From the NCBI GenBank assembly GCA_964016885.1, contig OZ024741.1, positions 217,868,001-217,932,000 of the forward strand: a stretch of 64,000 nucleotides of DNA, given 5' to 3'. Positions 36,175-58,936 of the stretch are shown here, one piece after another (position 1 is the first letter of the stretch; the number at the start of each line of letters is the position of its first letter). The DNA is from Eledone cirrhosa. Lineage: Eukaryota. Position numbers and translations under genes: made by a program. The notes below the pieces were generated by a model that did not search any database, was not told the DNA's origin, and saw only the letters and a program-made list of their open reading frames with translations.

Positions 36175-36399
36175 ATATGTTACATTAAAAATATATAGTT
36201 CCAAATATATATTTATATCATTGAGGTCACAAAATGCTTGACAAAAGAGCTTTGACAATTAAATAACCATCCGGTTAGTAAACTAAGCAAGGAATGGTTG
36301 AGTTATCTAATGAATAATAAAACTGAAGTGAAACTCAATGGTGCATATGCTTTTATTGGCTACATGACCTGTCTAAACTATAACAATATGTACGTGTAT

Positions 36400-36883
36400 A
36401 TATTGTTATACTTTGGGAGGGTCATGTTGCTAATAAGAAACACATGCACCAGTTGCTTTCACTCCAATTTATTATAAATTAAAGTATAAATTTAAAAATT
36501 TCCGGATGGTTGGTTGGTTCCACAACCGGACGGTTGTTCATATATTGTCAAAGTTCTTTCGTCACACATTCTGTGACCTCTTCAGTGACTGGGGATTCTT
36601 TTCTTTGTCCTACGCCATCTTGTTTTTGTGAACACACACAAAAACAAGATGGCGTAGGACAGAACAAAGGAGAGGCACAAAACAAAGAAAAGAATCCCCA
36701 GTCACTGAAGAGGTCACAGAATGTGTGACGAAAGAACTTTGACAATATATGAACAACCAGAAATTTATAATATATTGGAGTGAAAGCAACTGGTGCGTGT
36801 GTTTCTTATTGGCAATATGACCCTCCCAAAGTATAACAATATCGGTTTCAACACACGTTTTCAGATAAAGAATCTTGCTAAAC
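36400..36883. mobile_element. fold-back element with hammerhead-like core in each arm and a one-sided ~40-nt tail
   Basis: ~200-bp inverted arms centred near 36633. Core gtca CTGAAGA g GTCAC agaatgt GTGAC GAAA gaactt tgac at 36701-36743. Tail 36843-36883. Confidence 0.8.
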
Positions 36884-36906
36884 AAATTCAGAAACGAAAT
36901 ATATAT

Positions 36907-37228
36907 ATCATCATCATTTTACGTCCGCTTTTCCCTGGGACGGGAATTGATTCTGGCTTGATTTCTACAGCTGGATGCCCTTCCTAACACCAACCTCATT
37001 TACAGTGAGTGCTGGGTGCTTTTTTGCCGTGGCACCTCCACATCCACTTTGTAGTGGAATGATAGGGACCCCAGACCTTATCATCTCATTTCTACAGCTG
37101 AGTAAACTGGAGCAATGTGAAATAAAGTGTCCTGCTCAAGGAAACAACACATCACCCGGTCTGAGAATTGAACTCACAACCTTTCGATTGCAAGGCCAGT
37201 GCCCTAACCACTAAGCCATGTGCCTCCA
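36907..37228 (-). mobile_element. SINE family A copy
   Basis: Near identical to 43290-43633. Confidence 0.9.
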
Positions 37229-37455
37229 TATAAATACAAATAATGAATCAAAACATATCAAATATGTTTAGAATTTTGTGTTTCTCAATAAGCAAGCTCA
37301 ATAGACATTATCTAGAGCCATATTAACCAAATAAAGAGATATATCTATATATAAGAGAGAAAGAACCATATATCATATAAGAAATATATTATATTGTATA
37401 TATACCAAATACATATACCATAGAAGAATATGTACACAGCTGGAATCATAAGAGA

Positions 37456-37608
37456 AATCTTATAGTGCTATTTCATACCCGGCGAGTGTAGCTCAAAATC
37501 AATCTATGTAATTGATCATCGAAAAAAATCAATCAATATAATCGATCATCAAAGACAAACTACCGATTATAATTAAACAACAGGAGACCCAGGTACTCAT
37601 CGGGGGTT
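37456..37608 (-). ncRNA. decayed hammerhead-like motif with long stem II insertion
   Basis: CCGATGA GTACCTGG ... CCGGGTAT GAAA TAG ca CTA TA. Stem II is 8 bp with wobbles and stem III is 4 bp, but the core has U4>C and stem I is poor. Confidence 0.4.
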
Positions 37609-37944
37609 AGTAAATAAGACAATATACTTGCCAATATCCTTAGAGATGTCTAACGCAACCGTCATGCTGAAATCATGTTAAACCCAAGGTAAATAGATAT
37701 TAACAAGGTAGACATTAACTCTGCTAGAAATAGGTGCGATGGCTCTTTCTCTCTCTCTCTATATATATACATATATCTTTTTCATTTGTTACATATATAT
37801 ACGTACTGTATAGTGGTTGTGTAGGTGTTATGACAAAAAGCACCCAGTCCACACTGTAAAGTGGTCATGTTGGTGTCATGACAAACAGCACCCAACACAC
37901 AAATAGATATCAACAAGGTGGACATTAACTTCTAAAGTTATATG

Positions 37945-38405
37945 ATGCCTGTGTGAGATGTGCGATGCTACATGGTAGTGAGACATGGGCAGCAACTGCA
38001 GAGGATATGCGACGGCTGGAGAGAAATGAAGCAAGCATGCTCCGTTGGATGTGCAGTGTAAATGTGTGTGAATGACCAAGCATGGATGTGTTGAGAGAGA
38101 AATTATGTCTGAGAGGGATAAATTGTAGTGTGCGGGAGAGGAGACTGCGATGGTATGGACATGTGATGTGCATAGAGGATGACCGATGGGTAAAGAAGTG
38201 CCAAGAAATGCCAGTTGAAGGAAGACGTAGTAGAGGAAGACCACGAAAAACATGGGCAGAGGTGGTGATAGTAAACCTTAGATCGCTGAAGTTCACAGTG
38301 GAGATGACGAAGGACCGTGACAAGTGGAGAGATGCTGTGCTGAATAGGACCTGTCCCACCCTTGCAAGCAGGGAAAAGCGGACGTAAAATGATGATGATG
38401 ATGAC
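37945..38405 (+). mobile_element. 5'-truncated RTE LINE (family B) 3' end
   Basis: RRLRWYGHV...GRPRKTW...LASREKRT* immediately followed by (TGA)n. Confidence 0.93.
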
Positions 38406-38544
38406 ATGGTATGATCCTGTAACTCCTGGTAGAGTCATAGGGGCACCATTATGTCAATATGGCGTTTCTTTGTCATTTTAAGCCTGGCAGAGCCCATCCC
38501 TCTCCTAGCCTGAGTACAGCAGATTTCTTCCAGATAGAGGAAGA

Positions 38545-38705
38545 ATCGACCCCAGTACTAGACTGGTACTTTTTTTTATCAACCTCGAAAGGATGAAAGG
38601 CAAAGTTGAGCTTGGCGGGATTTGAACTCAGAGCAGAAAGCTGGAACGAATACCATAAAGCATTCTATCCGACGTGCTAACGACTCTGCCAATTCACTGC
38701 CCATG
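38545..38705 (-). mobile_element. SINE family B copy
   Basis: ggcagagtcgttagcacgtcgg...gagttcaaatcccgcc...gcctttcatcctttcg. Confidence 0.85.
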
Positions 38706-38749
38706 TATATATATATATATAAAAACCTGGGACGATTTGATAAATTCCG

Positions 38750-39255
38750 ACCTGACACACTTACACCTCTCCTAGACAATGTCACTGGACCGAGATCTTT
38801 GGCGCTATGCAGTAATACAGAAGACCCGCCTTGCCTATGTACAAAGCGAAACCTAGTCAGTAAGCACCTCTTAACCAAATGTATACCCCATCCCACTACC
38901 CCTACTCCCCCCCCCCCCCCCCCCCCACACTCCCACCAACACCACCCTTTCTCTGTAAAGTTATGTTGGTACCACAACATCCAGTCCAAAATAAATGAGG
39001 TCGTGTAGGTGTCACAACAAAAAAACACACAGTCCACGCTGTAATGTGGCCGTGTAGGTAACACGGTAAAAACCTCCCAGTCCACACTGTAAACGTGGTT
39101 GGTGTTAGGAAGGGCATCCAGCTGTAGAAAAACTGCCAGACAGTCCTATACAAGCGGGACATGGTCACCCGACCAATCTTGTGGGACAATTCTCGTCTAA
39201 ACCCATGCTAGCGTGGAAGATAGACATTAAACAATGATGATGATGATGATGATGA
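38750..39255 (+). mobile_element. 5'-truncated RTE family A copy (ORF end plus 3' UTR)
   Basis: Homologous to the reverse complement of 29496-30085; (GAT)n tail. Confidence 0.9.
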
Positions 39256-39305
39256 TATATATAATAATTAGGGAACAAAGAATCAGTCTCATATACATAT
39301 TTAAT

Positions 39306-39396
39306 CACATATTACATATGTTTCACTGCCAATCAGCTCGAGGAATGAGCGATTGTTTGTTCCTGACTCTGGAATTGAAATCTCTTCAGATATGTG
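39306..39396 (-). ncRNA. type I hammerhead ribozyme-like motif (best preserved in the window)
   Basis: CACATAT CTGAAGA [58-nt structured stem II] GAAA CATATG TA ATATGTG. Perfect 7-bp stem I, palindromic stem III (ACATATGT), GUA triplet; the base of stem II is imperfect. Confidence 0.7.
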
Positions 39397-39539
39397 TTCT
39401 CACATGTAGACTCGTGAGGTGTTCAATTTTCATTACATTTATTGAGGTGTGATGCACGTTTTGTGATTCATCAGCTCATGGTTCAATCTGTATCGATCTA
39501 GCCTGACCCTGGAATCAAAAGCTTGTTGGACTTATATAT

Positions 39540-39825
39540 CATCATTTCATCATTTCATTTTACGTCCACTTTTCCCTGCTTGCAAGGGTGGGACGGGAAC
39601 TGATTCTGGCTTGATTTCTACAGCTGGATGCCCTTCCTAACACCAACCTCATTTACAGTGAGTGCTGGGTGCTTTTTTGCCGTGGCACCTCCACGACCAC
39701 TTTGCAGTGGAATGATAGGGACCCCAGTCCCTATCATCTCATTTCTACAGCTGAGTAAACTGGAGCAATGTGAAATAAAGTGCCTTGCTCAAGGAAACAA
39801 CACATCACCCAGTCTGAGAATTGAA
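39540..39825 (-). mobile_element. SINE family A copy, truncated in the tRNA head
   Basis: Matches other copies up to ctgagaattgaa, then (TA)n. Confidence 0.9.
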
Positions 39826-39837
39826 TATATATATATG

Positions 39838-40255
39838 TGAGGTAATTCCGAAGGAAAAGCAAAGGAAAAAAGAGTGCTCTATGTATAGAACAGAGCTATT
39901 TAATTAGAAAGTAAACAACACAATATATAACTACTCCATTACCAAAGGTTTCAGGACCCTAGACAAAATTAATGTATGTCTAGATCGTTCATCAGACAGA
40001 GATGTTATCTTATGGGCTGAAACCTCGAAGTACTGCAATACCAGGTCAACCTGTGGCAAAGGCGGAGCAAGCCCCCAACTCTTTACCTATTTCCGAAAAT
40101 CAGTTTAATATCGATGATCCCATATAGGGATCGTATCAGATATTAAGCTGATAAGAACAGGTCTGATGAACGATCCAGACATATATTAATATTGTCTAGG
40201 GTCCTGAAACGTTTGGTAATGGAGTAGTTATATATTGTGTTGTTTACTTACTAAT
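39838..40255. mobile_element. fold-back element with hammerhead-like arms enclosing a U2 snRNA fragment; tail at 39838-39902
   Basis: ~95-bp inverted arms at 39903-39997 and 40161-40255, each starting gtCTGATGA-hairpin-GAAAC. Flanked by (TA)n. Confidence 0.75.
40012..40160 (-). pseudogene. U2: 5'-truncated U2 snRNA copy (about nt 40 to the 3' end)
   Basis: Minus strand reads CTGTTCTTATCAGCTTAATATCTGATAC (stem IIa), GATCCC/GGGATC stem IIb, variant Sm site GATTTTCGG, GGCTTGCTCC stem III loop, GACCTGGTATTGCAGTAC stem IV. It lacks the 5' end and branch-site-pairing GTAGTA. Confidence 0.95.
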
Positions 40256-40268
40256 ATATATATATATA

Positions 40269-40612
40269 TGGAGGCACATGGCTTAGTGGTTAGAGCATTG
40301 GCCTTGCAATTGAAAGGTTGTGAGTTCAATTCTCAGACCGGGTGATGTGTTGTTTCCTTGAGCAAGACACTTTATTTCACATTGCTCCAGTTTACTCAGC
40401 TGTAGAAATGAGATGATAGGGACCCCAGTCCATATCATTCCACTGCAAAGTGGTCGTGGAGGTGCCACGGCAAAAAAGCACCCAGCACTCACTGTAAATG
40501 AGGTTGGTGTCAGGAAGGGCATCCAGCTGTAGAAATCAAGCCAGAATCAGTTCCCGTCCCACCTTTGCAAGCAGGGAAAAGCGGACGTAAAATGATGATG
40601 ATGATGATGATG
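40269..40612 (+). mobile_element. full-length SINE family A copy
   Basis: ggaggcacatggcttagtggttagagc (A box), gagttcaattctc (B box), RTE-type terminus plus (TGA)n. Confidence 0.92.
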
Positions 40613-40626
40613 ATATATATATATAT

Positions 40627-40787
40627 ATTATAAAGAGTTGGGACCCATTGACTGAGCTCTTGCCATTTCAACAGTTTGTTCCAGACATAGTTATTGAAAC
40701 AGCAAGAGCTCAGCTGTTGGGTTCTGACCCTTTATAATATACCCATAGTCTACTACTCCAAGTATCCAGTACACTGTTGAGTAATGG

Positions 40788-40793
<6 letters not shown>
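40627..40793. repeat. decayed inverted repeat with one-sided tail between (TA)n tracts
   Basis: attataaagagttgggaccc..gagctcttgccatttcaa versus ttgaaacagcaagagctc..gggttctgaccctttataat. A related arm occurs at 33866-33912. Confidence 0.6.
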
Positions 40794-40827
<34 letters not shown>

Positions 40828-40951
40828 TTCTTGTCTTACCAATCTCTCTCTATATATATATATGCACTTCACTACTAACTTGGTCTATGATGACTCGTCC
40901 AATCATTGCATGGAAAACAGCCATTAAATAATGATATATATATATATATAT

Positions 40952-40982
<31 letters not shown>

Positions 40983-41435
40983 CAGGTACATATACATATA
41001 TATATAGATATATATGTACAGACAAACACATATATATATTTGCATGTGTGGGTGTGGTGCAGCAAATGTCATACTTATTTTTCCTCATGTGCTCACTGAC
41101 TTAAATGACTCACCACCACCACCACCACCACCACCACCACCACCACCACCACCACCACTACGATGACTACAACAACTACCATGTTTCATATTAATTGTGA
41201 AATTTCCAGGAATCTACACACGAAGTTATAAATCACCAGTGTAGTCTTATCTACCAATACATACCATCAGTGGAGTCTTATCTACCAATACATACCATAC
41301 CATCTGTGTAGTCTTATCTACCAATGCTAAGGATGTTGTCAAGGCCTTCTCCCCCAAATAAAAAATAAAACTCTAGCAGCAAGTGAATGGCTGAAACTAA
41401 TAAGAGACAAGAGAAGACATTAGAAAATATATAAT

Positions 41436-41738
41436 TTATTGAACAGGTGTGAGCGGTAAAAGTATGTCAAAGTATCCTGTACCAAACGTGGGGAGTTTAC
41501 CGGCAACTATTTGGGACGTAGGGGAACGTAGTAAGTCTTTAAAGCGATAAGAAGCAGCATTTGTCAAAACACGGTAAGCTGACTCGAAGGAAATCTGTTG
41601 GAATGGTGATGGACAGGAGTGCATACCATGTTGGTTGAAGAATATCAGTTCACCTTCAAATGCCATGTAGTCAGCGATCAAAGACAAATGGCGGTAGTCC
41701 ACTTTGATACCATAAACACCAAACACAGACTGGATTTC
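41436..41738 (-). CDS. POLR1A: RNA polymerase I largest subunit, terminal coding exon
   Basis: EIQSVFGVYGIKVDYRHLSLIADYMAFEG...SPFQQISFES...LRSPTSQIVAGKLPTFGTGYFDIL is an RPA1-type C-terminus with no CTD heptads. Acceptor ttgcag; 303 nt including TAA. Confidence 0.93.
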   Translation of the reverse strand, partial: EIQSVFGVYGIKVDYRHLSLIADYMAFEGELIFFNQHGMHSCPSPFQQISFESAYRVLTNAASYRFKDLLRSPTSQIVAGKLPTFGTGYFDILLPLTPVQ

Positions 41739-41904
41739 CTGCAAGATAAAATATTTTATACAATAAAAGGTATTTTTGTAAAACCCTTTTGTGACTGTAT
41801 TTCTAATGAAATACATTCTATTTCCAATAATACACTGTCAGAAAGAGGATAGACAAATACATCTCTGTCATAAAATGTTGTACGGGGCACAATATTTTGG
41901 CCCT

Positions 41905-42072
41905 TTAACCCTTTAGCATTTAAACCGGCCATATCCAGCCAGAATTCTCTCACCCGCTTCCGTTCAAACCAGCCATAACTGGTCACTCACATTGACGTTA
42001 AGGTATTGTTCTCAAAATAAATAACATCAAAATCTAGTAATATATAGAGTAATGTAAATGCTAAAGGATTAA
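41905..42072. mobile_element. piggyBac-like MITE
   Basis: TTAA-CCCTTTAGCATTTA ... TAAATGCTAAAGGA-TTAA termini; three related copies in the window. Confidence 0.75.
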
Positions 42073-42099
42073 ACAACAGAACTACTTGCCTCATAAGGC

Positions 42100-42130
<31 letters not shown>

Positions 42131-42131
<1 letters not shown>

Positions 42132-42833
42132 CAAATGAGATCGTGTAGGTGTCATCATCAACGTTTAACGTCCGTGTTCCACGCTTGCATGGGTTTGGAC
42201 GGGGGTAGTCCCACTTGAGGCAAGAGTGATTGTCTTGCTCGCATAGGACTGTCTGGCAGGTTTTCTACAGTTGGATGCCCTTCCTAACACCAACCACATT
42301 TACAGTGTGGGTCTGGGAGGTTTTTACCGTGTTGCCTACACGGCCACATTACAGCGTGAACTGTGTGTTTTTTTGTCGTGACACCTACACGATCTCATTT
42401 GTTTCGGCCTGGATGGCGCGGCACCAACATAACTTTACATAGAACGGGGTGGTGTGGATGGGGTGGGGGTGGTGGGACGGGGTGTATTTTGTTAGAGATG
42501 CCTACTGGCTGTAGTAGGTTTTACTATGTATTTAGGTAAGGCGGGTCTTACCTAACAACTGAGTACCGCCAAAGGTCTCGGTCCAGTGACATTGTCTTGG
42601 AGAGGTGTAAGTGTCACGACAAAAAAAACACAGTTCACGCTATAATGTGGCCGTGTAGGCAACACGGTAAAAACCTCCCAGCCCCACACTGTAAATGTGG
42701 TTGGTGTTAGGAAGGGCATCCAGCTGTAGAAAACCCGCCAGATTGTCCTATGCGAGCAAGATAATCACTCTTGCCTCAATTGGGAAATCCCCCGTCCAAA
42801 CCCATGCAAGTGTGGAACACGGACGTTAAACGT

Positions 42834-42870
<37 letters not shown>
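42131..42870. mobile_element. RTE family A 3' end (plus) interrupted by an inverted RTE family A 3' end (42154-42614, minus)
   Basis: atcgtgtaggtgtca|cgacaaaa continuity is split by the inverted copy; gtgtca occurs at both junctions. Confidence 0.85.
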
Positions 42871-43258
42871 ATAAACAAATAGTAAAAAGGAAAAAAAAAA
42901 TACAGTAGCAACTGCTACCGCCTCTGTTGGTCAACACTAGCAGAGAGCAAAAGAGAGCTTTGGACAGAAATATGAACTTTCCTCTCTAAATATGTATGTA
43001 AAAACTAATAATTTTTTTTCTCCATTTTATTATTATTCGTATAAATATGCAATTTAATTTCACTTATACACTTCCGTCGTTGAAAAAGCATATAAAGCTG
43101 AAACCGGTACACAATTAAATGTGGAAATCCCTACTTTATAAATAAATGTTTTGATATTATACTGAAAAAAATCCCTCCAGCATTTTCTACTGTATTTTTT
43201 TTCCTTTTGACTATTTGTTTATATATATCAACTCGTGTGTCACTTTTATTCATTCCAT
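42871..43258 (+). mobile_element. inverted-repeat element with decayed hammerhead-like motif and tail
   Basis: IRs at 42871-42916 and 43179-43222. Internal TTGAAAA AGC atataaa GCT GAAA CCGG TA at 43080-43109. Confidence 0.5.
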
Positions 43259-43289
43259 ATATATATATATATATATTCCATATATATAT

Positions 43290-43632
43290 ATCATTTCATC
43301 ATCATTTCATTTTACGTCCACTTCTCCCTGCTTGCAAGGGTGGGACAGGAACTGATTCTGGCTTGATTTCTACAGCTGGATGCCCTTCCTAACACCAATC
43401 TCATTTACAGTGAGTGGTGGGTGTTTTTTTGCCGTGGCACCTCCACGACCACTTTGCAGTGGAATGATATGGACCCCAGTCCCTATCATCTCATTTCTAC
43501 AGCTGAGTAAACTGGAGCAATGTGAAATAAAGTGTCTTGCTCAAGGAAACAACACATCACCCGGTCTGAGAATTGAACTCACAACCTTTCGATTGCAAGG
43601 CCAATGCTCTAACCACTAAGCCATGTGCCTCC

Positions 43633-43633
<1 letters not shown>
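43290..43633 (-). mobile_element. SINE family A copy
   Basis: Full-length match to the reverse complement of 40269-40612. Confidence 0.92.
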
Positions 43634-43671
<38 letters not shown>

Positions 43672-43706
<35 letters not shown>

Positions 43707-44337
43707 TTTACGTCCGCTTTTCCCTGCTTGCAAGGGTGGGACGGGTCTTATTCAGCACAGCATCTCTCCACTCGTCACGGTCCCTCGTCATCTCCACCGT
43801 GAGCTTCAATGATCTGAGGTCTGTTCTCACCACCTCCGCCCATGTTTTTCGTGGTCTACCTCTACTACGTCTTCCTTCAACTGGCATTTCCTGGCACTTC
43901 TTCACCCATCCGTCATCCTCCATGCGCATCACATGTCCATACCACCTCAGTCTCCTCTCCCGTACACTACATTCTATCCCTCTCAGACACAGTTTCTCTC
44001 TCAACACATTTATGCTGGGTCGTTCACGTACATTTACACTGCACATCCAACGGAGCATGCTTGCCTCATTTCTCTCCAGCCGTCGCATATCTTCTGCGGT
44101 AGCTGCCCATGTCTCACTACCATGCAGATTCGCGCTCCTCACACAGGCATCATACAACCGGCCTTTCGTACGCAGGGAGAAACCCTTCTTCGTCAACAGA
44201 GGAAGCAGCTCCCTAAACTTCTTCCAACCCGTCCTTATTCTAGATACTATGGCCTCGGAACACCCTCCGCCCATGCTAATCTGATCTCCTAGGTACCGGA
44301 AGCTATCCACCACTTCTATAGCGCCCTCTCGCATTTG

Positions 44338-44338
<1 letters not shown>
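43672..44338 (-). mobile_element. 5'-truncated RTE LINE (family B)
   Basis: Open frame from DSFRYLGD to LASREKRT*, then (GAT)n. Confidence 0.95.
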
Positions 44339-44339
<1 letters not shown>

Positions 44340-44379
<40 letters not shown>

Positions 44380-44558
44380 CATATATATATATATATTCCA
44401 TATATATATATATATATTCCACATATATATATATATATTCCACATTTATATATATATATTCCACATATATATATATATTCCACATATATATATATATATA
44501 TATATATATTCCATATATATATATATATATATTCCATATATATATATATATATATATA

Positions 44559-44635
<77 letters not shown>
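44340..44635. repeat. (TA)n microsatellite punctuated by TTCCA(CA)
   Basis: Directly visible. Confidence 0.95.
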
Positions 44636-44636
<1 letters not shown>

Positions 44637-44869
44637 TTAAAGGTTGTTAAGACGGGATTATTTTACCGTAATTCATATATATGTGCATACACCCCCCCCC
44701 CCCACACACACACATATATATATATAAAATAGTAATGAGTATAATCGAAGTTGCAGCTGAAAGTAGCAGATTCACACCCGATTTTCGAAGGCTGTCACAA
44801 AGCACTCTGTGAGAGAGTAATTAATTAATATATATATATATACATGAAACCCATGGACGTTAATAATGA

Positions 44870-50800: not shown

Positions 50801-51501
50801 ATATATGTGTGTGGCATAGTTGGGCATGGTTTCTACATACATATATATATATGTGTGTGGTATAGTTGGGCATGGTTTCTACATACATATATATATATGT
50901 GTGTGGCATAGTTGGGCATGGTTTCTACATACATATATATATATGTGTGTGGTATAGTTGGGTATGGTTTCTACATACATATATATATATGTGTGTGGCA
51001 TAGTTGGGCATGGTTTCTACATACATATATATATATGTGTGTGGTATAGTTGGGCATGGTTTTTACATACATATATATATATGTGTGTGGCATAGTTGGG
51101 CATGGTTTCTACATACATATATATATATGTGTGTGGCATAGTTGGGCATGGTTTCTACATACATATATATATATGTGTGTGGCATAGTTGGGCATGGTTT
51201 CTACATACATATATATATATGTGTGGTATAGTTGGGCATGGTTTCTACATACATATATATATATGTGTGTGGCATCGTTGGGCATGGTTTCTACATACAT
51301 ATATATATGTGTGTGTGGCATAGTTGGGCATGGTTTCTACATACATATATATATATGTGTGTGGTATAGTTGGGCATGGTTTCTACATACATATATATAT
51401 ATGTTTGTGGCATAGTTGGGCATGGTTTCTACATACATATATATATATGTGTGTGGTATAGTTGGGCATGGTTTCTACATACCTATATATATATATATAT
51501 A
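44870..51501. repeat. intronic 44-52-bp minisatellite: constant core plus variable (TA)n(TG)n
   Basis: Core GG(T/C)ATAGTTGGG(C/T)ATGGTTTCTACATACA repeated roughly 140 times, with block duplications at 240, 2284 and ~2415 bp. Confidence 0.97.
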
Positions 51502-52214
51502 TTTGCCAAACAAAAGATTGTGAGGACCATTCCTTCATGTCAAAGACATCGCAGCCTCCCTAGTGTTGCTGATCTACACGATAAACACACCCAGCACACG
51601 CTGTAAAGTGCTTGGTGATAGGAAGACCTTCAGTTTTGTCAAAGACACGATAGATCCCTGGCTTGACTGGTAGATTTGTAGACAATGCTTCAATACTGAC
51701 TTGGTCTATGTAGACCCATCCAACCCTTACTAACAGGGAAAGTGGATGTTAAAATGATGATGATGAGGAAATCATGCCAAAAAGGGCCAAGAGGACTCTT
51801 CAGCACAACAACCTTTGTAGTGTTAGTGACCTTCATGATAAACACACCAAGTACACTCTGTAAAGTGGTTGCTGATAGGAAGGGGGCATCCAGTCATAGA
51901 AAGCTTGCCAAACAAAGGGCTGGGAGGCCTCTTCAGCTGTACCAAAGACATGATGGCCTTCCTAGTGTTGGTGTCATGATAAAATATGCTCGGTAGAGCA
52001 TGGGAATGTATGTAAGCAAGATGTGGACCTTCAGTCCACCTGAGGGTTCAGTACCCTCGCTTGAGTACTGACTTGGTCTGTGAAGATCCCTCCAGCCCTT
52101 GCTAGCAGGGAAAATGGATGTATGATGTATATATATATATATTTCATTGTTTGAACGATTGACAGATCTCAAACTACATTTGCTTACTGAGTGGTGTGGA
52201 ACTTGTCAAATCAG

Positions 52215-52390
52215 ACAGAGGAAACAATATTTCCATTGCTGATTCTATCTGCCGGTCACAACTCCTGGTAGAAAGAGCAACATGAAATAAAGTGCCTTGC
52301 TCAAGGACATAACACATTGCCTGGTCCAGGAATCGAACTCGCAACCTTATGATCTTGAATCTAAATTTGTTAACCACTAAGCCATATGCC
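52215..52390 (-). mobile_element. tRNA-headed SINE (variant body)
   Basis: ggcatatggcttagtggtta...gagttcgattcctggacc...ccttgagcaaggcactt; sister copy at 59120-59277. Confidence 0.8.
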
Positions 52391-52439
52391 TAAACCCTAT
52401 TGGTGTGTGGAGGAAAGAGTCTAACAAGTTAACACTCAC

Positions 52440-52550
52440 CTTTATGATGACTTTCTGACCGGCTTCTATCCCATAGATGTTTGACATGATAGTTGGAGAG
52501 TTACAGTAAATGCGATTAATGTCCAGAATTTTGTCAAACTGTAGCATATA
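52440..52550 (-). CDS. POLR1A: POLR1A-like internal exon (YMLQFDKILDINRIYCNSPTIMSNIYGIEAGQKVIIK)
   Basis: 111 nt, ttgcag|...|gtgagt, phase 0-0. Contains YGIEA, matching RPA1 LDLRRLYSNDIH...YGIEAA. Not in the ORF track. Confidence 0.92.
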
Positions 52551-52639
52551 CTGCAAAACAAGGAATAAAATTAGACAAAATACACTAACTCAGGTCAATT
52601 CTTAAAAAATATGAACATTAGTTAAATTGGAATGTTGAG

Positions 52640-53172
52640 TTAACCCTTTAGCATTTAAACCAGCTGTAACTAGCCGCTCATACTGATGTTAAGGTATTGT
52701 TCTCAAAATAAATAATATCAAAATTTCATGGATTTGATATTTTGTGAGGTAAAGTCTTTACTGTGAAAATATGTGTGTGTGTGTGTGCGCGTGCGTGTGT
52801 GTGTGTGTATAGTATGGTATGGCATGGCACGGACCCGTAACTCCTGAGGAGTCGTAGCGGCATCATATTGACATACAGCACTTCTAGGGCATTTTTTTAT
52901 AAACCTGGCGGAGCCCATCTCCTCTCCAGATCTGAATACAGAAGATTTCTTCCAGAGAAGGATAGAGAGAGTGAGAGAGAAAGGAAGAGAGAAAGAGATA
53001 CTTTTGTTTATCCACCATGAATGGGTGAAAGGCAAAGTTGACCTCGGCAGGACTTGAACTCAGAAAGCAAAGAACCGGAATGAATACTACAAGGCATTCT
53101 ATCTGACGTTCTAGCGACTCTGCCAATTCTCCACCTTGTATATATAGAGTAATGTAAATACTAAAGGGTTAA
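52640..53172. mobile_element. piggyBac-like MITE with nested microsatellite and family B SINE (53010-53135, minus)
   Basis: TTAACCCTTTAGCATTTA ... TAAATACTAAAGGGTTAA; internal sequence shared with 41905-42072. Confidence 0.75.
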
Positions 53173-53174
53173 AC

Positions 53175-54230
53175 CAATTTAATACCAATCAGCCTAAAAA
53201 TAACCCTGGTTTATTTAATGATACAAGTATCAGAGACAGTGTCTTTCATTAGAGATATGGTAACAAAGGGGTTTAAGTGCTTTATATTTGTCTAAAAAGC
53301 TTCCATCATAATTTAATGTAAGAATCCTTATATTCTAAACAACATCTTTTAGAGGAAGAAATCATCATCATCCTCATCATTTCATTTCACGTCTGCTTTT
53401 TCCCTGCTTGCAAGGGTGGGACGGGAACTGATTCTGGCTTGATTTCTACAGCTGGATGCCCTTCCTAACACCAACCTCATTTACAGTGAGTGCTGGGTGC
53501 TTTTTTGCCGTGGCACCTCCACGACCACTTTGCAGTGGAATGATATGAACCCCAGTCCCTATCATCTCATTTCTACAGCTGAGTAAACTGGAGCAATGTG
53601 AAATAAAGTGTCTTGCTCAAGGAAACAACACAGTTATATTACACAGTTATAAACAACAAAGTTATATTACTAAATCCTTCCACATTCTTGATTGTTTAAA
53701 AAATTATCCAAAGACCATAAAAAGTGTTTATATTTATCTAAAAACCTTCCAACATAATCTTAAAAAAGAACCTTTGTTAAGTTACGTTCCAAACACCAAC
53801 TTAATAATTGTTTCTACTATTGGCACAAGGCCAGCAATTATTCCAGTGCATTACTGGTACTTTATTTTATCGACCCCATAAGGATGAAAGGCAAAGTTAA
53901 CCTCGGTGGGATTTGAACTCAGACCATAAAGGGGCGTAAGTTTATGCTGGAAAGCATGGCGTCCAACCTTCAACTTAATAATGAGAAAGTAAGTTATATT
54001 ATTAAAATCTCTCAAAATTTTGATTATTTAAAAAATTATCTAAAGACCTTACAAAGTGTTTTTATTAGAAATATGGTAAAGAAAGGGTTAAAGCATTTAT
54101 ATTTATCTCAGATCCTTCCATCATAATTTTATGTAAGAACCTCTGTTAAGTTATGTTCAAAACATCAACTTAATAACGAGAAAGTTAGTTATATTACTAA
54201 ATTAGAAATAAGGAAATGAAAGGGTTAAAG
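53175..54230. repeat. AT-rich dispersed/tandemised repeat with nested SINE A (53364-53630) and SINE B (53815-53965)
   Basis: Recurring tttatatttatctaaaaaccttcc..cataat..ttatgttccaaacacc..cttaataatgagaaag units; the same family occurs at 63020-63715. Confidence 0.65.
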
Positions 54231-54512
54231 AGAATAAAAATCTGAATTTTTCTTATCAAATTGCAATGAAATAAAATCTAAACTTTCTGTTAATCAACAT
54301 CATCGTTATTTAATGTCTGTTTATCTATGTTGGTATGGGTCAGACACAAACACATATCTTTCTCATTATCAACACTGCTTAATGTCTATTTTTCCATGCT
54401 TGCATGGGTTAGACCGGTTGTCCATGTTATGAGACAAGTCTGGCCAGTGGGCCGTGATGTAACTTGCTCAAACAGAACAGTATTTTGGCTGCTTTTTTTA
54501 CAGCTTGTTGTA

Positions 54513-54750
54513 TCATCATCATCATCATCGTTTAACGTCTATCTTCCATGCTAGCATGGGTTAGACGGGAATTGTCTCATTTGAGGTAAGATTGGTCGGG
54601 TGACCGTGTCTCACTCGTATAGGACTATCTGGCAGGTTTTCTACGGTTAGATGCCCTTCCTAACACCAACCACATTTACAGTGTGAACTGGGAGCTTTTT
54701 ACCGTGTTACCTACATGAATGACCACATTACAGCATGGACTGTGTTGTTT
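54513..54750 (-). mobile_element. RTE family A-like 3' UTR fragment
   Basis: (CAT)n cgtttaacgtc...gatgcccttcctaacaccaaccacatttacagtg. Confidence 0.85.
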
Positions 54751-54781
54751 TTTGTTTCCTTATTTTTTTTTTATATTGTAT

Positions 54782-54934
54782 ATATTTATTTTATTATAGA
54801 AATGACTTCTTCAGGATTAGAACTGTTTCATTTGAGCTGTTTCTAGTCCCGTAGAAGTCATTTCTATAATAAAATAAATATGTCTATACTCTACAAATGC
54901 ATTGAGTACCATTTTTAACTACTGTCACCTCGCG
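54782..54934. repeat. hairpin element with one-sided tail
   Basis: A 29-bp perfect arm atatttattttattatagaaatgacttct pairs with agaagtcatttctataataaaataaatat; weaker inner pairing; tail to 54934. Confidence 0.75.
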
Positions 54935-54944
54935 ATATATATGT

Positions 54945-54980
<36 letters not shown>

Positions 54981-55149
54981 GCGCACAATGACAGAGGGAG
55001 AGAGAGAATAAGAGAGAAAGAAAGAGTCAGAGAGTGAGCGAGAGAGAGTGAAAGAGGTTGTGCAGCAGCAGTATTTTCTCTATAGACCCACAGCCACTAA
55101 ACATTAAAATTCATTAAATCTCTTGTTTTTTGTTTTCTTTTACGAAGGT

Positions 55150-55566
55150 AAATAATAATAATAATGAAATTATTGTGTACTACAGGTGCACTACAACTCA
55201 TCAAAGGTGCATGTATAGTACATAGAATAATGTACAAATGTCAGGGAAGTGAATAGTGTATGAGTCATGATATACATGTGTGCATGTGTATGGAGGGGGG
55301 CATATCAGGAAGCATGGAGGTTTTAAAGGATGCAGTGTCTCGACAGCTCACAACTGATGCAGGTAGTTTGTTCCATGGGGGGTTTTAAAGGATGCAGTGT
55401 CTCGACAGCTCACAACTGATGCAGGTAGTTTGTTCCATGCTTCAGCAACTCTGAGCATGAAAAACTGTTTCGGAAAGTCACGGGAGCTGTGCTGTTTTCT
55501 GATTTTGTAGGCATGCCCACGTGTGTTAGACACATGGAATTCAAAAAGGTACTCAGGGTTGTTGTT
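55150..55566 (-). mobile_element. CR1-clade LINE 3' fragment with internal ~63-bp duplication and (ATT)n tail
   Basis: TRGHAYKI...FFMLRVAEAWNKLP...ASFK C-terminal motif; a second 3' UTR copy lies at 57545-57665. Confidence 0.85.
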
Positions 55567-55590
55567 GGCAAGAAAGAAATAGAGACTTAC

Positions 55591-55755
55591 ATTAATTTCA
55601 ATTCCTTCTGTCTGTAGGTGGAGTTCAGTTCCTCTTGGTGTCTTCACATTGGTTAAAATGGAACGTTCAATACCAGGGATTTGATGTACAATGGAAGTTT
55701 GTGCATGGTCTTTGATAATGGTCAGCAGGTCAACCTTGGTCAGTTTCAAGTCAAA
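55591..55755 (-). CDS. POLR1A: POLR1A-like internal exon (FDLKLTKVDLL...IPGIERSIL...LQTEGIEIN)
   Basis: 165 nt, gtcag|...|gtaagt, phase 0-0. GI.R and L.TEG.N motifs of RPA1. Confidence 0.9.
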
Positions 55756-55804
55756 CTGACATACAAATAATCAAAGGAAATGGTAAGTAACAGTATAAAC
55801 TTAG

Positions 55805-56030
55805 GAGGGATTGGCAGTATCGATAGATTGTCGGACACCATGCTTTGCAGCATAGAGTTATGGCCCTTTATGTTCTGAGTTCTGAGTTCAAATCCTGCCA
55901 TGGTCAGCTTTGCCTTTCATCCTTACATGGTCGATAAAATAAAGTACCAGTCATGTACTAGGGTCGATATAATCGACTTTCCCCCCTCCCCAAAATTGCT
56001 GGTCTTGTGCCTAAATTGGAAACCATTATT
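55805..56030 (+). mobile_element. SINE family B copy
   Basis: gagttcaaatcctgcc...gcctttcatccttacatggtcgataaaataaagtaccag. Confidence 0.85.
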
Positions 56031-56049
56031 TCCCACATTTGGGGGTTTA

Positions 56050-56590
56050 TTATTTTACTGGTTTCAGCCATTACACTGTGGCCATGCAGCGGCTCTGCCT
56101 TGGTTTAGTTGATAATATCAACTCTGGTACTTATTTTACTGGTTTAATCATTACACTGTGGCCATGCTGGGGCATTGCCTTGATTTAGTTGATAATACCA
56201 ACCCTGGTACTTATTTCATTGGTTTAAATTATTACACTGTGGCCATTGCCTTGATTTAGTTGATCAATTCAACCACATTACTGGTACATCGCACTACCCA
56301 GCCCCCCTGTACCTCCTCAAAATATTACTGGTACATCTAATTACTTCAAAACATTACTGGGAGATCTATTACCTTCCACCCCTGTGTGTCCTCAAGATAT
56401 GACTGGTACATCTATTACTATCCACACCATGTACCCCTAAGATATTACTGGTACATCTATTACCATCCACACCATGTACTCCTAAGATATTGCTGGTACA
56501 TCTATTACCATCCACACCATGTACCCCTAAGCTATTACTGGTACATTTATTACTATCCACACCATGTACCCCTAAGATATTACTGGTATA
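56050..56590. repeat. two adjacent minisatellites (~77-bp x3; 45-bp x~5)
   Basis: ttacactgtggccat...tttagttgat units, followed by tattactggtacatctattac..tccacaccatgtacccctaaga units. Confidence 0.85.
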
Positions 56591-56711
56591 TATTAGTCTA
56601 GATTATTGACAATCTTGTCAATGATGATTCATTGTTATAAATTAGTTTATATTGTAAATAATTCATTAAAGCAGATGATAATGAAGGCAACAAGAGCCAT
56701 AACTGAGGCCC

Positions 56712-57346
56712 TACTTAAGTGAGGGTTAACAAATGAGGTGAGTCTAAAGTTAACTGGGTCTTACTGTAGTCTTACTTAAGAGAGGGTTAACAAATGAGGT
56801 GAGTCTAAAACTAGCTGGGTCTTACTGTAGTCTAACTTAAGTGAGGGTTAACAAATGAGGTGAGTCTTACTTAAGTGAGGGTTAACAAATGAGGTGAGTC
56901 TGAAACTAGCTGGTTCTTACTGTAGCCTTACTTAAGAGAGGGTTAACAAATGAGGTGAGTCTAAAGTTAGCTGGGTCTTACTGTAGTCTTACTTAAGAGA
57001 GGGTCAACAAATGAGGTGAGTCTAAAACTAGCGGGTTCTTACTGTAGCCTTACTTAAGTGAGGGTTAACAAATGAGGTGAGTCTAAAGTTAGCTGAGTCT
57101 TACTGTAGCCTTACTTAAGAGGCGGTTAACAAATGAGGTGAGTCTAAAGTTAGCTGGGTCTTACTGTAGTCTTACTTAAGAGAGGGTCAACAAATGAGGT
57201 GAGTCTAAAACAAGTTGGGTCTTACTGTAGTCTTACTTAAGTGAGGGTTAACAAATGAGGTGAGTCTAAAGTTAGCTGGGTCTTACTGTAGTCTTACTTA
57301 AGTGAGGGTTAACAAATGAGTGAGTCTAGAGATAGTTGGATCTTAC
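56712..57346. repeat. ~59-bp minisatellite (~11 units) abutting an exon 5' splice site
   Basis: Unit CTTACTTAAG(A/T)GAGGGTTAACAAATGAGGTGAGTCTAAAGTTAGCTGGGTCTTACTGTAGT. Confidence 0.92.
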
Positions 57347-57427
57347 CTTAAACACAACTTCACACCAAAGGCTGTTTTCCTTATCGTATTTATATGAGTA
57401 AATATTTTCAGTGAATGCTTTTAAATA
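57347..57427 (-). CDS. POLR1A: POLR1A-like internal exon (YLKAFTENIYSYKYDKENSLWCEVVFK)
   Basis: 81 nt, tttcag|...|gtaaga, phase 0-0. Y.YD....LWC.V motif following the RPA1 acidic loop. Confidence 0.9.
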
Positions 57428-57705
57428 CTGAAAAATATAATATATATAGGCATGTATTTATTTAAATATATATATATATTTCAATGTATAACGGCAGATC
57501 ATATCATTATATGCATGAGGTATCTACCTGTTTATATATATATATAATAATAATAATGAAATTATTGTATACAGTGCTCAGGTGCACTACAAGTCAACAA
57601 AGGTGCATGTATAGTACATAGAATAATATACAAATGTCAGGGAAGTGAATAGTGTATGAGTTATGAGGCTTCTACAGGACTAGAACTGTTTAATTCGGGA
57701 GAAAT

Positions 57706-58040
57706 GGAGGCACATGGCTAAGTGGTTAGAACATTGGCCTTGCAATCGAAAGGTTGTGAGTTCAATTCTCAGACCGAGTGATGTGTTGTTTCCTTGAGCA
57801 AGACACTTTATTTAACATTGCTCCAGTTTACTCAGCTGTAGAAATGAGATGATAGGGACTGGGGTCCATATCATTCCACTGCAAAGTGGTCGTGGAGGTG
57901 CCATGGCAAAAAAGCACCCAGCACTCACTGTAAATGAGGTTGGTGTTAGGAAGGGCATCCAGCTGTAGAAATCAAGCCAGAATCAGTTTCCGTCCCACCC
58001 TTGCAAGCAGGGAAAAAGCGGACATGAAATGAAATGATGA
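57706..58040 (+). mobile_element. full-length SINE family A copy
   Basis: Near identical to 40269-40612. Confidence 0.92.
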
Positions 58041-58287
58041 TATAGGAATGAAGTATCCATATAACATTGATCAGCTCAAGGTACAATTGGAAGTAATCAA
58101 ACCTAACTCAAGAATTGATTGCTCATCAGATGTGGATTCTTGAGAATCCACATCTGATAAGCAATTGATATTATATATATATATACACACACAAAACATT
58201 GGTCTGCCCATGCTCATCTAAAGGTCCATGCAGTGAAGCAAACTTTTATACCACACAGCCATACAAGTCTGTGTCTGCGTGTGCATA

Positions 58288-58329
<42 letters not shown>

Positions 58330-58333
<4 letters not shown>

Positions 58334-58936
58334 TACTTGGGGAGGGTCATATTTGTGTAATAATATTGCCAGAATTAATAACAGAACACACTCACTGTTT
58401 GGTTGCTTCTGTATCTTTTATATCAGTTAATTTAATTTATTCGGTCCTCAATGTTACCATTGACTGACCAACGGTAAAAAATACAGATATAATATAGACA
58501 CAAACACATATATATATATAGTCTAACAAAGTTCTTTCGTTGCACATCTGCAACATCGTCAGTGGTGCTATTATGTTTCCTCCTGTTGTATTGTATGCCT
58601 ACGCCATCTTTTTGGCGTAGGCATACAATACAACAGGAGGAAACATAATAGCACCACTGACGATGTTGCAGATGTGCAACGAAAGAACTTCGTTAGACTA
58701 TATGTGTTTGTGTCTATATTATATCTGTATTTTTGACCGTTGGTCAGTCAATGGTAACATTGAGGACCGAATAAATTAAATTAATTGATATAAAAGATAC
58801 AGAAGCAAAAACCAACCAAACAGTGAGTGTGTTCTGTTATTAATTCTGGCAATATTATTACACAAATATGACCCCCCCCCCAAGTATAACAATATTTGTT
58901 TCAACACACGATTTCATATGAAAAACCTCGCAAAAC
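58330..58936. mobile_element. large fold-back element (~277-bp arms, 6-nt loop) with hammerhead-like core and one-sided tail
   Basis: Near-perfect palindrome 58330-58890 centred at 58607-58612. Core CTGACGA t GTTGCA gatg TGCAAC GAAA gaactt at 58657-58690. Tail 58891-58936 resembles 36843-36883. Confidence 0.85.

What the first reader, a model, noticed from the sequence alone, without database searches (positions are those of the whole stretch)
36400..58936. Two palindromes 22 kb apart conserve only ordered motifs and a covarying stem
Seen: 36400-36883 and 58330-58936 differ over most of their length but share, in order, AAGATGGCGTAGG near the apex, CTGANGA+1 nt, a stem II with compensatory sequence (GTCAC/GTGAC versus GTTGCA/TGCAAC), GAAAGAACTT, the outer end ATATGACCC.CCC.AAGTATAACAATAT, and an unpaired tail GTTTCAACACACG.TTTCA.AT.AA.AA.CT.GC. 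Inference: selection on RNA structure and on cis signals. AAGATGGCG matches a YY1-type core and could be an internal initiator. Stem I is 4 bp in the first element and weak in the second, so activity is uncertain.
Basis: partly seen in the sequence, partly recalled or inferred. Interest (0 to 1): 0.75.

Follow-up and report, generated by a model that had tools for sequence, protein, structure and literature searches.

The report
Inverted Penelope-like retroelement insertions
The two palindromes are separate head-to-head insertions of two families of Penelope-like retrotransposons, and their shared motifs are the hammerhead-ribozyme motif already described for such elements and the start of the element's protein-coding gene, so the finding is ordinary.

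Summary
In detail: both palindromes and all the ordered motifs are present. They are not a pair. Each is an independent insertion of a Penelope-like retroelement (PLE) into a (TA)n microsatellite. Each consists of two 5'-truncated copies of the element's 3' end joined head to head. The two come from two families that are very abundant in this 3-Gb genome, with 5,566 and 8,663 exact hammerhead matches and 0 for the reversed controls.

- **CTGANGA+1 nt / stem II / GAAA:** this is the published PLE "minimal hammerhead". Helix II is 6 bp and paired in 16 of 16 sequences, with two compensatory pairs between the families.
- **Outer end and "unpaired tail":** these are the ORF's first ATG and codons 1-28. 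The ends of the copies lie at discrete sites 26 and 84 bases into the ORF (+26, +84). This is the known PLE "tail" signature.
- **AAGATGGCG box:** it sits at a hot spot for 5' ends. 24 of 53 truncated copies end there (P = 6e-19). This fits an internal initiator, which remains unproven.

About half of sampled copies lie in head-to-head pairs. Verdict: new members of a known kind, low interest.

The parts
36223..36389 (+). Older, diverged, tail-less 3' fragment of a PLE of the same kind. It ends in ..CTATAACAATAT, 10 nt before element 1.
   Evidence: blastn of element 1 against its own locus, 71-75% identity; inverted repeat I3; sequence.
36400..36630 (-). Element 1, inverted arm: a 5'-truncated PLE 3' end. 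Its outer end is at 36400 (ATATTGTTATAC = reverse complement of ORF +26, no tail). Its 5' end is about 11 nt upstream of the AAGATGGCG box.
36631..36842 (+). Element 1, direct arm: from the 5'-end hot spot to ORF +26.
36645..36657 (+). AAGATGGCGTAGG box (YY1-like by recalled consensus). It lies 59 nt upstream of the hammerhead core, at the hot spot for 5' ends of truncated copies.
36701..36743 (+). Minimal hammerhead motif of element 1. Helix I GTCA (36701-36704) pairs with TGAC (36740-36743). Core CTGAAGA 36705-36711. Extra G 36712. Helix II 36713-36718 / 36724-36729. GAAA 36730-36733. Predicted cleavage after 36739. A mirror copy lies on the minus strand at about 36547-36589.
   Evidence: features as in PMC4209133
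36817..36900 (+). Start of the PLE ORF: ATG at 36817, codons 1-28 (MTLPKYNNIGFNTRFQIKNLAKQIQKRN). Copy-end site 1 is after 36842 (+26). The 'tail' is 36843-36900 and ends at +84, followed by (TA)n.
58326..58606 (-). Element 2, inverted arm, tail-less. Its outer end merges into (TA)n at about 58326. It carries the full AAGATGGCGTAGG (58598-58610, minus strand) and a hammerhead motif within 58505-58578.
58613..58895 (+). Element 2, direct arm, starting at TGGCGTAGG. It is 83% identical to the 3' UTR of the intact tandem PLE in L045.
58657..58690 (+). Minimal hammerhead motif of element 2. Core CTGACGA 58657-58663. Extra T 58664. Helix II 58665-58670 / 58675-58680. GAAA 58681-58684. GAACTT 58685-58690. 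Helix I forms only 3 of 4 pairs in this family.
58868..58938 (+). Start of the PLE ORF in element 2: ATG at 58868. The frame is broken by an extended C run that the inverted arm lacks. Copy-end site 1 is after 58895. The tail is 58896-58938, ending at about +69 and followed by (TA)n.

Best explanation
Each palindrome is one insertion of a Penelope-like retroelement (PLE) into a (TA)n microsatellite. It is made of two 5'-truncated copies of the element's 3' end joined head to head, likely because cDNA was primed on both strands of the cut target.

Shown:
- An intact relative of element 2 exists as a 4,145-bp tandem unit with a 1,216-aa ORF.
- The outer-end motif is that ORF's first ATG plus codons 1-9, and the tail is codons 9-28.
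- Copies end at discrete sites (+26, about +69, +84), almost always against (TA)n.
- Head-to-head pairs are the commonest arrangement.
- The hammerhead-like island keeps its core and its paired helix II in both families.

Inferred, by analogy with the Anolis PLE studied in vitro (PMC11167929):
- The endonuclease cuts both strands of the target.
- Reverse transcription starts inside the RNA at the two sites. One arm therefore carries the tail and the other does not.
- The two cDNAs are joined at their 5' ends.

The motif islands are shared because the master copies of both families are under selection for three things. The first is the N-terminal coding sequence and the reverse-transcription start region. 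The second is the minimal hammerhead, predicted to act as a dimer or with protein help. The third is a box at the probable 5' end of the template RNA.
For: Identity of the arms:
- Upstream of the arm in many copies lies a frame with a GIY-YIG domain (PF01541, E = 8e-06, 26.5 bits against a cut-off of 22.6).
- The same frame holds RT motifs, including YVDD. RVT_1 scores 24.8-26 bits.
- The endonuclease regions of the two families are 55% identical (E = 7e-36).
- Atlas neighbours carry RVT_1 + HTH_animal + GIY-YIG.
- L045 and L046 hold tandem units 99.5-100% identical with an open 1,216-aa frame. L046 and L047 show an inverted 5'-truncated copy abutting the direct copy.
- Element 2 is 83% identical to the L045 3' UTR on both arms.

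Coding nature of the outer end and tail:
- The first ATG of the 1,216-aa frame lies in ATATGACC.
- tblastn of the ORF hits 36811-36897 (76% identity) and 58879-58968 (67% identity).
- Differences between families fall 4, 2 and 11 at codon positions 1, 2 and 3.

3' ends:
- Of 90 hammerhead-anchored copies of the element-1 family, 45 end at +26, 36 at +84, 4 have partial tails and 5 have other ends.
- Of 30 copies of the element-2 type, 15 were scored tail-less, 3 end at about +69, 6 at +84, 4 continue into the ORF and 2 lack the motif.

Arrangement:
- Among the first 100 listed places of the ORF-start 26-mer there are 27 head-to-head pairs within 5 kb, against 2 tail-to-tail and 1 same-strand pair.
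- In 7 of 7 palindromic loci examined the apex junction differs, so they arose independently.

Hammerhead:
- Helix II is paired in 16 of 16 sequences, with 2 compensatory pairs and 1 G-U. G10.1-C11.1 is invariant. An extra nucleotide follows A9. Position 7 varies (A, C or U).

Literature:
- PMC4209133 (parts 1-2 read) describes these hammerhead traits and dual motifs 100-700 bp apart on opposite strands.
- PMC8557442 (passages) describes the inverted 5'-truncated copy, the one-sided tail and (TA)n targets.
- PMC11167929 (main text read) describes cutting and extension of both strands, with the tail lying between two internal start sites.
Against: - Rfam gave no hammerhead match, even at E up to 10.
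- RVT_1 stays below Pfam's cut-off of 29.6 bits.
- Pfam finds no GIY-YIG in the intact L045 ORF itself at E up to 0.1-1. That link rests on the 55% identity to the element-1-type domain.
- The covariation comes from only two lineages, so it reflects a single split.
- Helix I is unpaired at one position in the element-2 type. Across the alignment helix I is 83.6% paired.
- The 3' part of the motif differs in the intact L045 family.
- No cluster of 5' ends is seen at the predicted cleavage site: 0 or 1 of 20 truncated copies in a noisy sample of 30.
- The tails are 43-58 nt, longer than the 30-40 bp quoted in the literature.
- Priming on both strands is inferred from another PLE. It is not shown here.
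Confidence: 0.9

Rival explanations
1. The palindromes arise by snap-back. The reverse transcriptase reaches the 5' end of the RNA and turns back to copy its own cDNA, so both arms come from one template.
For: The apex often lies at the same hot spot near AAGATGGCG. The arms are 91-100% complementary.
Against: In 7 of 7 palindromic loci examined the inverted arm stops exactly at the +26 site while the other arm runs to +84. That query included the tail, so only the inverted arm is an unbiased observation. The two arms often reach different 5' positions (L013, L019, L024, L028, L029). The arms of element 1 differ by an indel of about 30 nt.
Confidence: 0.15
2. They are foldback or MITE-type DNA transposons whose terminal inverted repeats happen to carry the motifs.
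For: Long inverted arms with a defined outer end, ATATTGTTATAC...GTATAACAATAT.
Against: The same arm is the 3' UTR plus ORF start of an RT-endonuclease element. Single-arm copies are common. The tail is one-sided. The apex varies between loci. No target-site duplication is visible at either element, although the (TA)n targets would hide one.
Confidence: 0.02
3. They are selected hairpin-RNA loci, for example sources of small RNAs against PLEs or ribozyme genes, and the palindrome itself is the functional unit.
For: Generic hairpin and microRNA-precursor models score on both apices, all far below their gathering scores.
Against: The apex and arm lengths differ from locus to locus. The arms decay like neutral copies. 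There is no RNA evidence. Any small-RNA output would be a by-product of the insertion structure.
Confidence: 0.05
4. They are non-LTR retrozymes: short tandem hammerhead repeats that make circular RNAs.
For: They carry a hammerhead motif and are PLE-derived. A 2026 preprint derives vertebrate retrozymes from PLE pLTRs (10.64898/2026.07.22.740005; abstract and outline seen).
Against: In the window the hammerheads of each element lie on opposite strands, so no same-strand pair exists to cut out a unit. Same-strand repeats were seen only in full-length tandem arrays, 4,145 nt apart.
Confidence: 0.03

Closest known systems
Endonuclease-positive Penelope-like elements (PLEs); tentatively Neptune/Nematis-like
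   Same: [quoted passage not shown]
- Tandem or pseudo-LTR arrangement.
- An inverted 5'-truncated copy next to the direct copy.
- A one-sided tail.
- (TA)n targets.
- A hammerhead motif in the pseudo-LTR (PMC8557442 passages).
- The ORF shows C-x4-C-x2-C just upstream of the GIY-YIG core (HCTNRKCIICK). This fits the CX2-5CxxC linker that the paper gives for Neptune and Nematis.
   Different: The clade was not tested by phylogeny. The tails are 43-58 nt, against the 30-40 bp quoted. The families are very abundant: the ORF-start 26-mer occurs 27,081 times.
Minimal hammerhead ribozymes of metazoan PLEs (Cervera and De la Pena 2014, PMC4209133)
   Same: - Core CUGANGA...GAAA.
- An unpaired nucleotide between A9 and 10.1.
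- A G10.1-C11.1 pair.
- A long helix II (6 bp).
- A short helix I (4 bp).
- Almost no helix III.
- Dual motifs on opposite strands a few hundred bp apart.
   Different: Positions 15.1-16.1 read AGAACU, which is only partly palindromic (two A-A mismatches). In the intact L045 family they read AGAUUU. Helix I has a mismatch in the element-2 type. Cleavage was not tested. Rfam models do not detect the motif.
PAc, a Poseidon-clade PLE of Anolis carolinensis (Frangieh et al. 2024, PMC11167929)
   Same: The copy ends fall at two discrete sites inside the start of the ORF, and the tail is the stretch between them. The targets are AT-rich. The hammerhead lies upstream of the start sites.
   Different: Here the sites are at +26 and +84 (plus about +69), not +111 to +118. 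The hammerhead lies about 110 nt upstream of the ATG instead of overlapping it. Each site ends in AT or TA next to (TA)n, so microhomology with the target cannot be excluded.
[quoted passage not shown]
   Same: An AAGATGGC-type box lies a few to about 17 nt downstream of where copies begin. In L1, YY1 binding there dictates where transcription initiates (PMC11602158, abstract in a search listing). D. virilis Penelope has an internal TATA-less promoter like those of LINEs (PMC2377424, passages).
   Different: Neither binding nor a transcription start was tested here. The YY1 consensus is recalled and comes from no call. The Penelope promoter described in PMC2377424 uses Inr and DPE elements, not this box.

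Membership tests
Penelope-like element (EN+) | One ORF with a reverse transcriptase followed by a C-terminal GIY-YIG endonuclease | tested here: met
   - GIY-YIG (PF01541) is above its cut-off in an element-1-type copy.
- That domain is 55% identical to the C-terminus of the intact 1,216-aa ORF.
- RT motifs including YVDD are visible. RVT_1 scores 24.8-26 bits, below its cut-off of 29.6.
- Atlas neighbours carry RVT_1 and GIY-YIG.
- Pfam finds no GIY-YIG in L045 itself.
Penelope-like element (EN+) | Tandem or partial-tandem copies forming pseudo-LTRs, often with an adjacent inverted 5'-truncated copy | tested here: met
   Tandem 4,145-bp units in L045 and L046. Inverted truncated copies abut direct copies in L046 and L047. 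There are 27 head-to-head pairs among 100 listed places.
Penelope-like element (EN+) | An optional tail at one end, reflecting two internal reverse-transcription start sites | tested here: met
   Element-1 family, 90 copies: 45 end at +26, 36 at +84, 4 partial, 5 other. Element-2 type, 30 copies: ends at +26, about +69 and +84. That the sites are RT starts is inferred from PMC11167929.
Penelope-like element (EN+) | RT groups with PLE and telomerase RTs in a phylogeny | not tested
PDB gave only weak generic RT matches.
Minimal (PLE-type) hammerhead ribozyme | Catalytic core CUGANGA ... GAAA with a G10.1-C11.1 pair and an extra nucleotide after A9 | tested here: met
   Invariant in 16 of 16 aligned sequences from both families. 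Position 7 is A, C or U.
Minimal (PLE-type) hammerhead ribozyme | Helix II of 6-8 bp kept by compensatory change | tested here: met
   6 bp, 100% of cells paired, 2 pairs changed on both sides and 1 G-U. There are only two lineages, so this reflects one event.
Minimal (PLE-type) hammerhead ribozyme | Helix I of 4-5 bp next to the cleavage site | tested here: inconclusive
   4 of 4 pairs in the element-1 type. 3 of 4 in the element-2 type: one compensatory pair and one mismatch. 83.6% of cells are paired overall.
Minimal (PLE-type) hammerhead ribozyme | Palindromic positions 15.2-16.2 / loop 3, allowing a dimer | tested here: inconclusive
   AGAACU gives 4 pairs and 2 A-A mismatches as a self-duplex. 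AGAUUU in L045 pairs fully if G-U is allowed. Both were read by eye.
Minimal (PLE-type) hammerhead ribozyme | Self-cleavage | not testable with these tools
   No RNA runs were listed. No excess of 5' ends at the predicted site.
Rfam hammerhead families | Match to a curated hammerhead covariance model | tested here: not met
   No hammerhead hit at gathering scores or at E up to 10. This is expected for a motif without helix III.
DNA transposon / MITE / foldback element | Terminal inverted repeats with target-site duplications and no RNA-copy features | tested here: not met
   The arms are a retroelement's UTR and ORF start. The tail is one-sided. No duplication is visible, although (TA)n targets would hide one.
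Non-LTR retrozyme | Short same-strand tandem repeats, each with a hammerhead | tested here: not met
   The hammerheads of each window element lie on opposite strands.

The most novel reading that the evidence does not exclude
The (A)AGATGGCGTAG box, kept in two PLE families whose UTRs have otherwise diverged, is a YY1-type internal initiator. It would fix the transcription start 5-17 nt upstream. The RNA made from it would run about 250-300 nt, from the start site through the hammerhead to the first 9-28 codons. That RNA would be the preferred template for thousands of SINE-like 'solo pseudo-LTR' copies, typically laid down as head-to-head dimers. This would explain why the apices of independent palindromes coincide.
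Probability: 0.3. Interest if true: 0.4.

Novelty: new member of a known kind. Interest (0 to 1): 0.2.

Why it matters
The result explains a striking sequence pattern as ordinary PLE anatomy and so removes a false lead for a new structured RNA. It also adds genome-scale counts from one animal genome that agree with the in vitro picture of PLE insertion: discrete internal start sites, a one-sided tail, and head-to-head copies in about half of the sampled places. Finally, it points to one small open item, a conserved box at a 5'-end hot spot that could mark the element's promoter.

Tried and rejected
- **Rfam:** searched at gathering scores and at E up to 10. No hammerhead match; only generic hairpin and microRNA hits far below their cut-offs.
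- **Pfam on the whole 1,216-aa ORF:** 0 families. Tiles gave only sub-threshold RVT_1.
- **PDB sequence search:** only weak generic RT hits.
- **Four long copies of the element-1 family:** they turned out truncated or decayed. The intact reference had to come from the element-2 family.
- **RNA evidence:** no RNA holder listed. No reads were laid, so transcription start and cleavage remain untested.
- **More PLE families for covariation:** 30 loci found with the GIY-YIG model gave no strict hammerhead hit downstream in my scan. One locus (L197) shows a looser hammerhead-like motif with a palindromic AGUACU, which I did not pursue. The covariation test therefore rests on two lineages.
- **5' ends at the predicted hammerhead cleavage site:** 0 or 1 of 20 truncated copies among 30 sampled. 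Several alignment calls were noisy.
- **Earlier notes of this scan:** nothing was found for this place.
- **Literature on the box:** one search for 'Penelope-like' with 'YY1' found one unrelated review. I know of no description of this box in PLEs, but that rests on this single search.

Full report
**1. Observation**

Both regions are long imperfect palindromes. Element 1 has arms 36400-36630 and 36637-36842. Element 2 has arms about 58326-58606 and 58613-58895. Three details need correcting:
- Stem II is 6 bp in both elements (GTCACA/TGTGAC and GTTGCA/TGCAAC).
- In element 2 the complete AAGATGGCGTAGG is on the minus strand at the apex.
- The tails run to 36900 and 58938.

Rfam finds no hammerhead in either region, even at E up to 10. 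It finds only generic hairpin hits far below their gathering scores.

**2. A very abundant repeat**

The window lies in a 3.0-Gb genome. Exact-match counts, each with 0 for the reversed control:

| Sequence | Exact matches |
|---|---|
| 27-mer starting at AAGATGGCG | 5,569 |
| Element-1 hammerhead 39-mer | 5,566 |
| Element-2 hammerhead 30-mer | 8,663 |
| Outer-end 26-mer | 27,081 |

**3. What the arm is**

In many copies the arm is not preceded by its mirror image. Instead it follows about 300 nt or more of conserved sequence. That sequence translates into a GIY-YIG endonuclease domain (PF01541, E = 8e-06, above its cut-off). Further upstream there are reverse-transcriptase motifs.

A search with the RT piece gave 14,451 first-look candidates, some with open frames above 1,000 aa. 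Two loci, L045 and L046, hold tandem units of 4,145 bp. The units are 99.5-100% identical and carry a 1,216-aa open frame.
- RVT_1 matches this frame only below Pfam's cut-off: 24.8-26 bits against 29.6.
- Pfam does not see the GIY-YIG domain in it.
- Its C-terminus is 55% identical (E = 7e-36) to the element-1-type domain that Pfam does recognise.
- Its Atlas look-alikes carry RVT_1, HTH_animal and GIY-YIG.

An RT followed by a C-terminal GIY-YIG endonuclease in one ORF is the architecture of endonuclease-positive Penelope-like elements. Both arms of element 2 are 81-83% identical to the 3' UTR of this intact element. Elements 1 and 2 align with each other only over 77 nt. They therefore belong to two families, and their 22-kb spacing has no meaning. 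The window holds no other piece of the ORF.

**4. The outer end and the tail are coding sequence**

The first ATG of the 1,216-aa frame lies in the motif ATATGACCC. The "outer end" is codons 1-9 and the "tail" is codons 9-28. tblastn of the ORF hits 36811-36897 at 76% identity and 58879-58968 at 67% identity.

Between the families, differences in the first 28 codons fall 4, 2 and 11 at codon positions 1, 2 and 3. Eight of the codons that differ are synonymous. In element 2 an extended C run breaks the frame. The inverted arm lacks this C run.

**5. Ends of the copies**

I took the first 90 listed genomic places of the element-1 hammerhead and classified their 3' ends by script:

| 3' end | Copies of 90 |
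|---|---|
| Ends at AACAATAT (+26) | 45 |
| Ends at ..GAAACGAAAT (+84) | 36 |
| Partial tail | 4 |
| Motif absent or mutated | 5 |

Nearly all are followed by (TA)n, and none continues into the ORF. Two of the 45 tail-less calls look doubtful by eye (L139, L089).

For the element-2 type I classified 30 copies:

| 3' end | Copies of 30 |
|---|---|
| Scored tail-less (one, L198, really has a tail with a deletion) | 15 |
| Ends at about +69, as window element 2 does | 3 |
| Ends at +84 | 6 |
| Runs on into the ORF (tandem copies) | 4 |
| Lacks the motif | 2 |

This is the PLE "tail" signature. Craig et al. describe a 30-40-bp extension at one end only, an adjacent inverted 5'-truncated copy, and (TA)n targets (PMC8557442, passages seen). 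Frangieh et al. show for an Anolis PLE that reverse transcription starts at two internal sites within the start of the ORF. They show that the tail is the stretch between those sites, and that the protein cuts and extends both target strands (PMC11167929, main text read).

**6. The palindrome is an insertion structure**

Among the first 100 listed places of the ORF-start 26-mer there are 27 head-to-head pairs within 5 kb. There are only 2 tail-to-tail pairs and 1 same-strand pair. So 54 of the 100 places lie in head-to-head pairs.

In 7 of 7 palindromic loci retrieved with the arm-plus-tail query, the flanks and apex junctions differ. In all 7 the inverted arm ends at +26. The tail on the direct arm was selected for by that query.

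L046 and L047 show the same head-to-head junction next to full-length copies. I infer one insertion event with cDNA primed on both strands, and I rank snap-back copying second.

**7. The hammerhead**

Cervera and De la Pena (PMC4209133, parts 1-2 read) describe minimal hammerheads in PLE pseudo-LTRs. Their traits are a helix II larger than usual, a helix I of 4-5 bp, an unpaired nucleotide between A9 and 10.1, and a conserved G10.1-C11.1 pair. Positions 15.2-16.2 are palindromic, and dual motifs occur 100-700 bp apart on opposite strands.

I aligned 16 sequences, 6 of the element-1 type and 10 of the element-2 type, chosen by me from the loci held. Results on that alignment:
- The core, the extra nucleotide and G10.1-C11.1 are invariant.
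- Helix II is paired in all cells, with two pairs changed on both sides and one G-U.
- Helix I is 83.6% paired, with one compensatory pair and one position unpaired in the element-2 type.
- 0 of 500 shuffles reached the observed paired fraction or covariation score.
- Sliding the partners by 1 to 3 columns destroys the pairing.

The variation comes from only two lineages, so this is a single evolutionary split and the statistical weight is small. The 3' part of the motif (GAAAGAACTT) reads GAAAGATTTATG in the intact L045 family.

Among 30 copies anchored on the ORF start, 20 are truncated within reach. Of these, 0 or 1 start at the predicted cleavage site, and several alignment calls there were noisy. 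This agrees with the report that unprocessed RNA is the main template in vitro (PMC11167929). Cleavage itself is untested.

**8. The AAGATGGCG box**

Of the 90 hammerhead-anchored copies, 37 extend 500 nt or more upstream and 53 are truncated within 500 nt. Of those 53, 24 have their 5' end in the 22-nt window from -76 to -55 relative to the hammerhead core. The box starts at -59. A uniform model expects 2.3, giving a binomial P of 6e-19.

Caveats: the copies were not de-duplicated, both arms of a palindrome count separately, and a uniform model is crude.

A sample anchored on the 27-mer agrees: 5 of 14 truncated copies among 30 end within -10 to 0. In the element-2 type, 3 of 13 truncated copies among 30 end within 6 nt of ATGGCGTAG. 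In the ORF-start sample, which also sees shorter copies, only 2 of 20 truncated copies end at the hot spot. The peak is therefore local and does not account for most copies.

The partner sequence at the junction varies: (TA)n, an inverted arm cut at various points, or only an inverted tail. A discrete 5' end of the template RNA explains this best. Two published facts make an initiator plausible:
- D. virilis Penelope has an internal TATA-less promoter in this part of the element (PMC2377424, passages).
- The YY1 site of human L1 dictates where transcription starts (PMC11602158, abstract in the listing).

A stop of the reverse transcriptase at the A-rich tract just upstream is the alternative. 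No RNA runs were listed for this sequence, so this stays open. One search for 'Penelope-like' with 'YY1' found nothing relevant.

**9. Verdict**

The sequence pattern is real and non-random. It is the normal anatomy of Penelope-like retroelements, all parts of which are in print:
- the pseudo-LTR with a minimal hammerhead
- the ORF start that doubles as the reverse-transcription start region
- the one-sided tail
- (TA)n targets
- head-to-head truncated copies

The families here are new members of a known kind. The only item that may add something is the conserved box at the 5'-end hot spot.

Noticed in passing
window 40007-40186 (-): A full-length U2 spliceosomal snRNA match (RF00004, 102.7 bits, E = 1.4e-19). 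Its 5' stem-loop region is poorly aligned, so it may be a variant or a pseudogene.
   Followed up: no
window 36223-36389 (+): An older, diverged, tail-less PLE 3' fragment ends 10 nt before element 1. The same microsatellite site therefore seems to have been hit twice.
   Followed up: partly
L045 2761-6408 and L046 2671-6318: The open 1,216-aa PLE frame holds a long asparagine-rich low-complexity stretch (about residues 255-420) between the N-terminal region and the RT. This may be why Pfam found nothing on the whole protein.
   Followed up: no
L168-L197 (own genome): Other PLE-like families with a C-terminal GIY-YIG domain (10,597 first-look candidates) have different 3' UTRs. My strict scan found no hammerhead in them. 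L197 carries a looser motif with a 5-bp helix I and a palindromic AGUACU.
   Followed up: partly
L031 4420-5499 (own genome, about 5 kb upstream of the window start): A 360-aa open frame with LINE-type reverse-transcriptase motifs, unrelated to the PLE.
   Followed up: no
own genome: The ORF-start 26-mer is about five times more frequent than the element-1 hammerhead 39-mer (27,081 against 5,566). Many copies must therefore be shorter than about 170 nt or belong to further subfamilies. Head-to-head pairs only 80-170 nt apart occur.
   Followed up: partly
window 36480-36531 against 36759-36775: The two arms of element 1 differ by an indel of about 30 nt in an AACC-repeat/hairpin region that also varies between genomic copies. 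Either it was deleted after insertion, or two different template RNAs were used.
   Followed up: no
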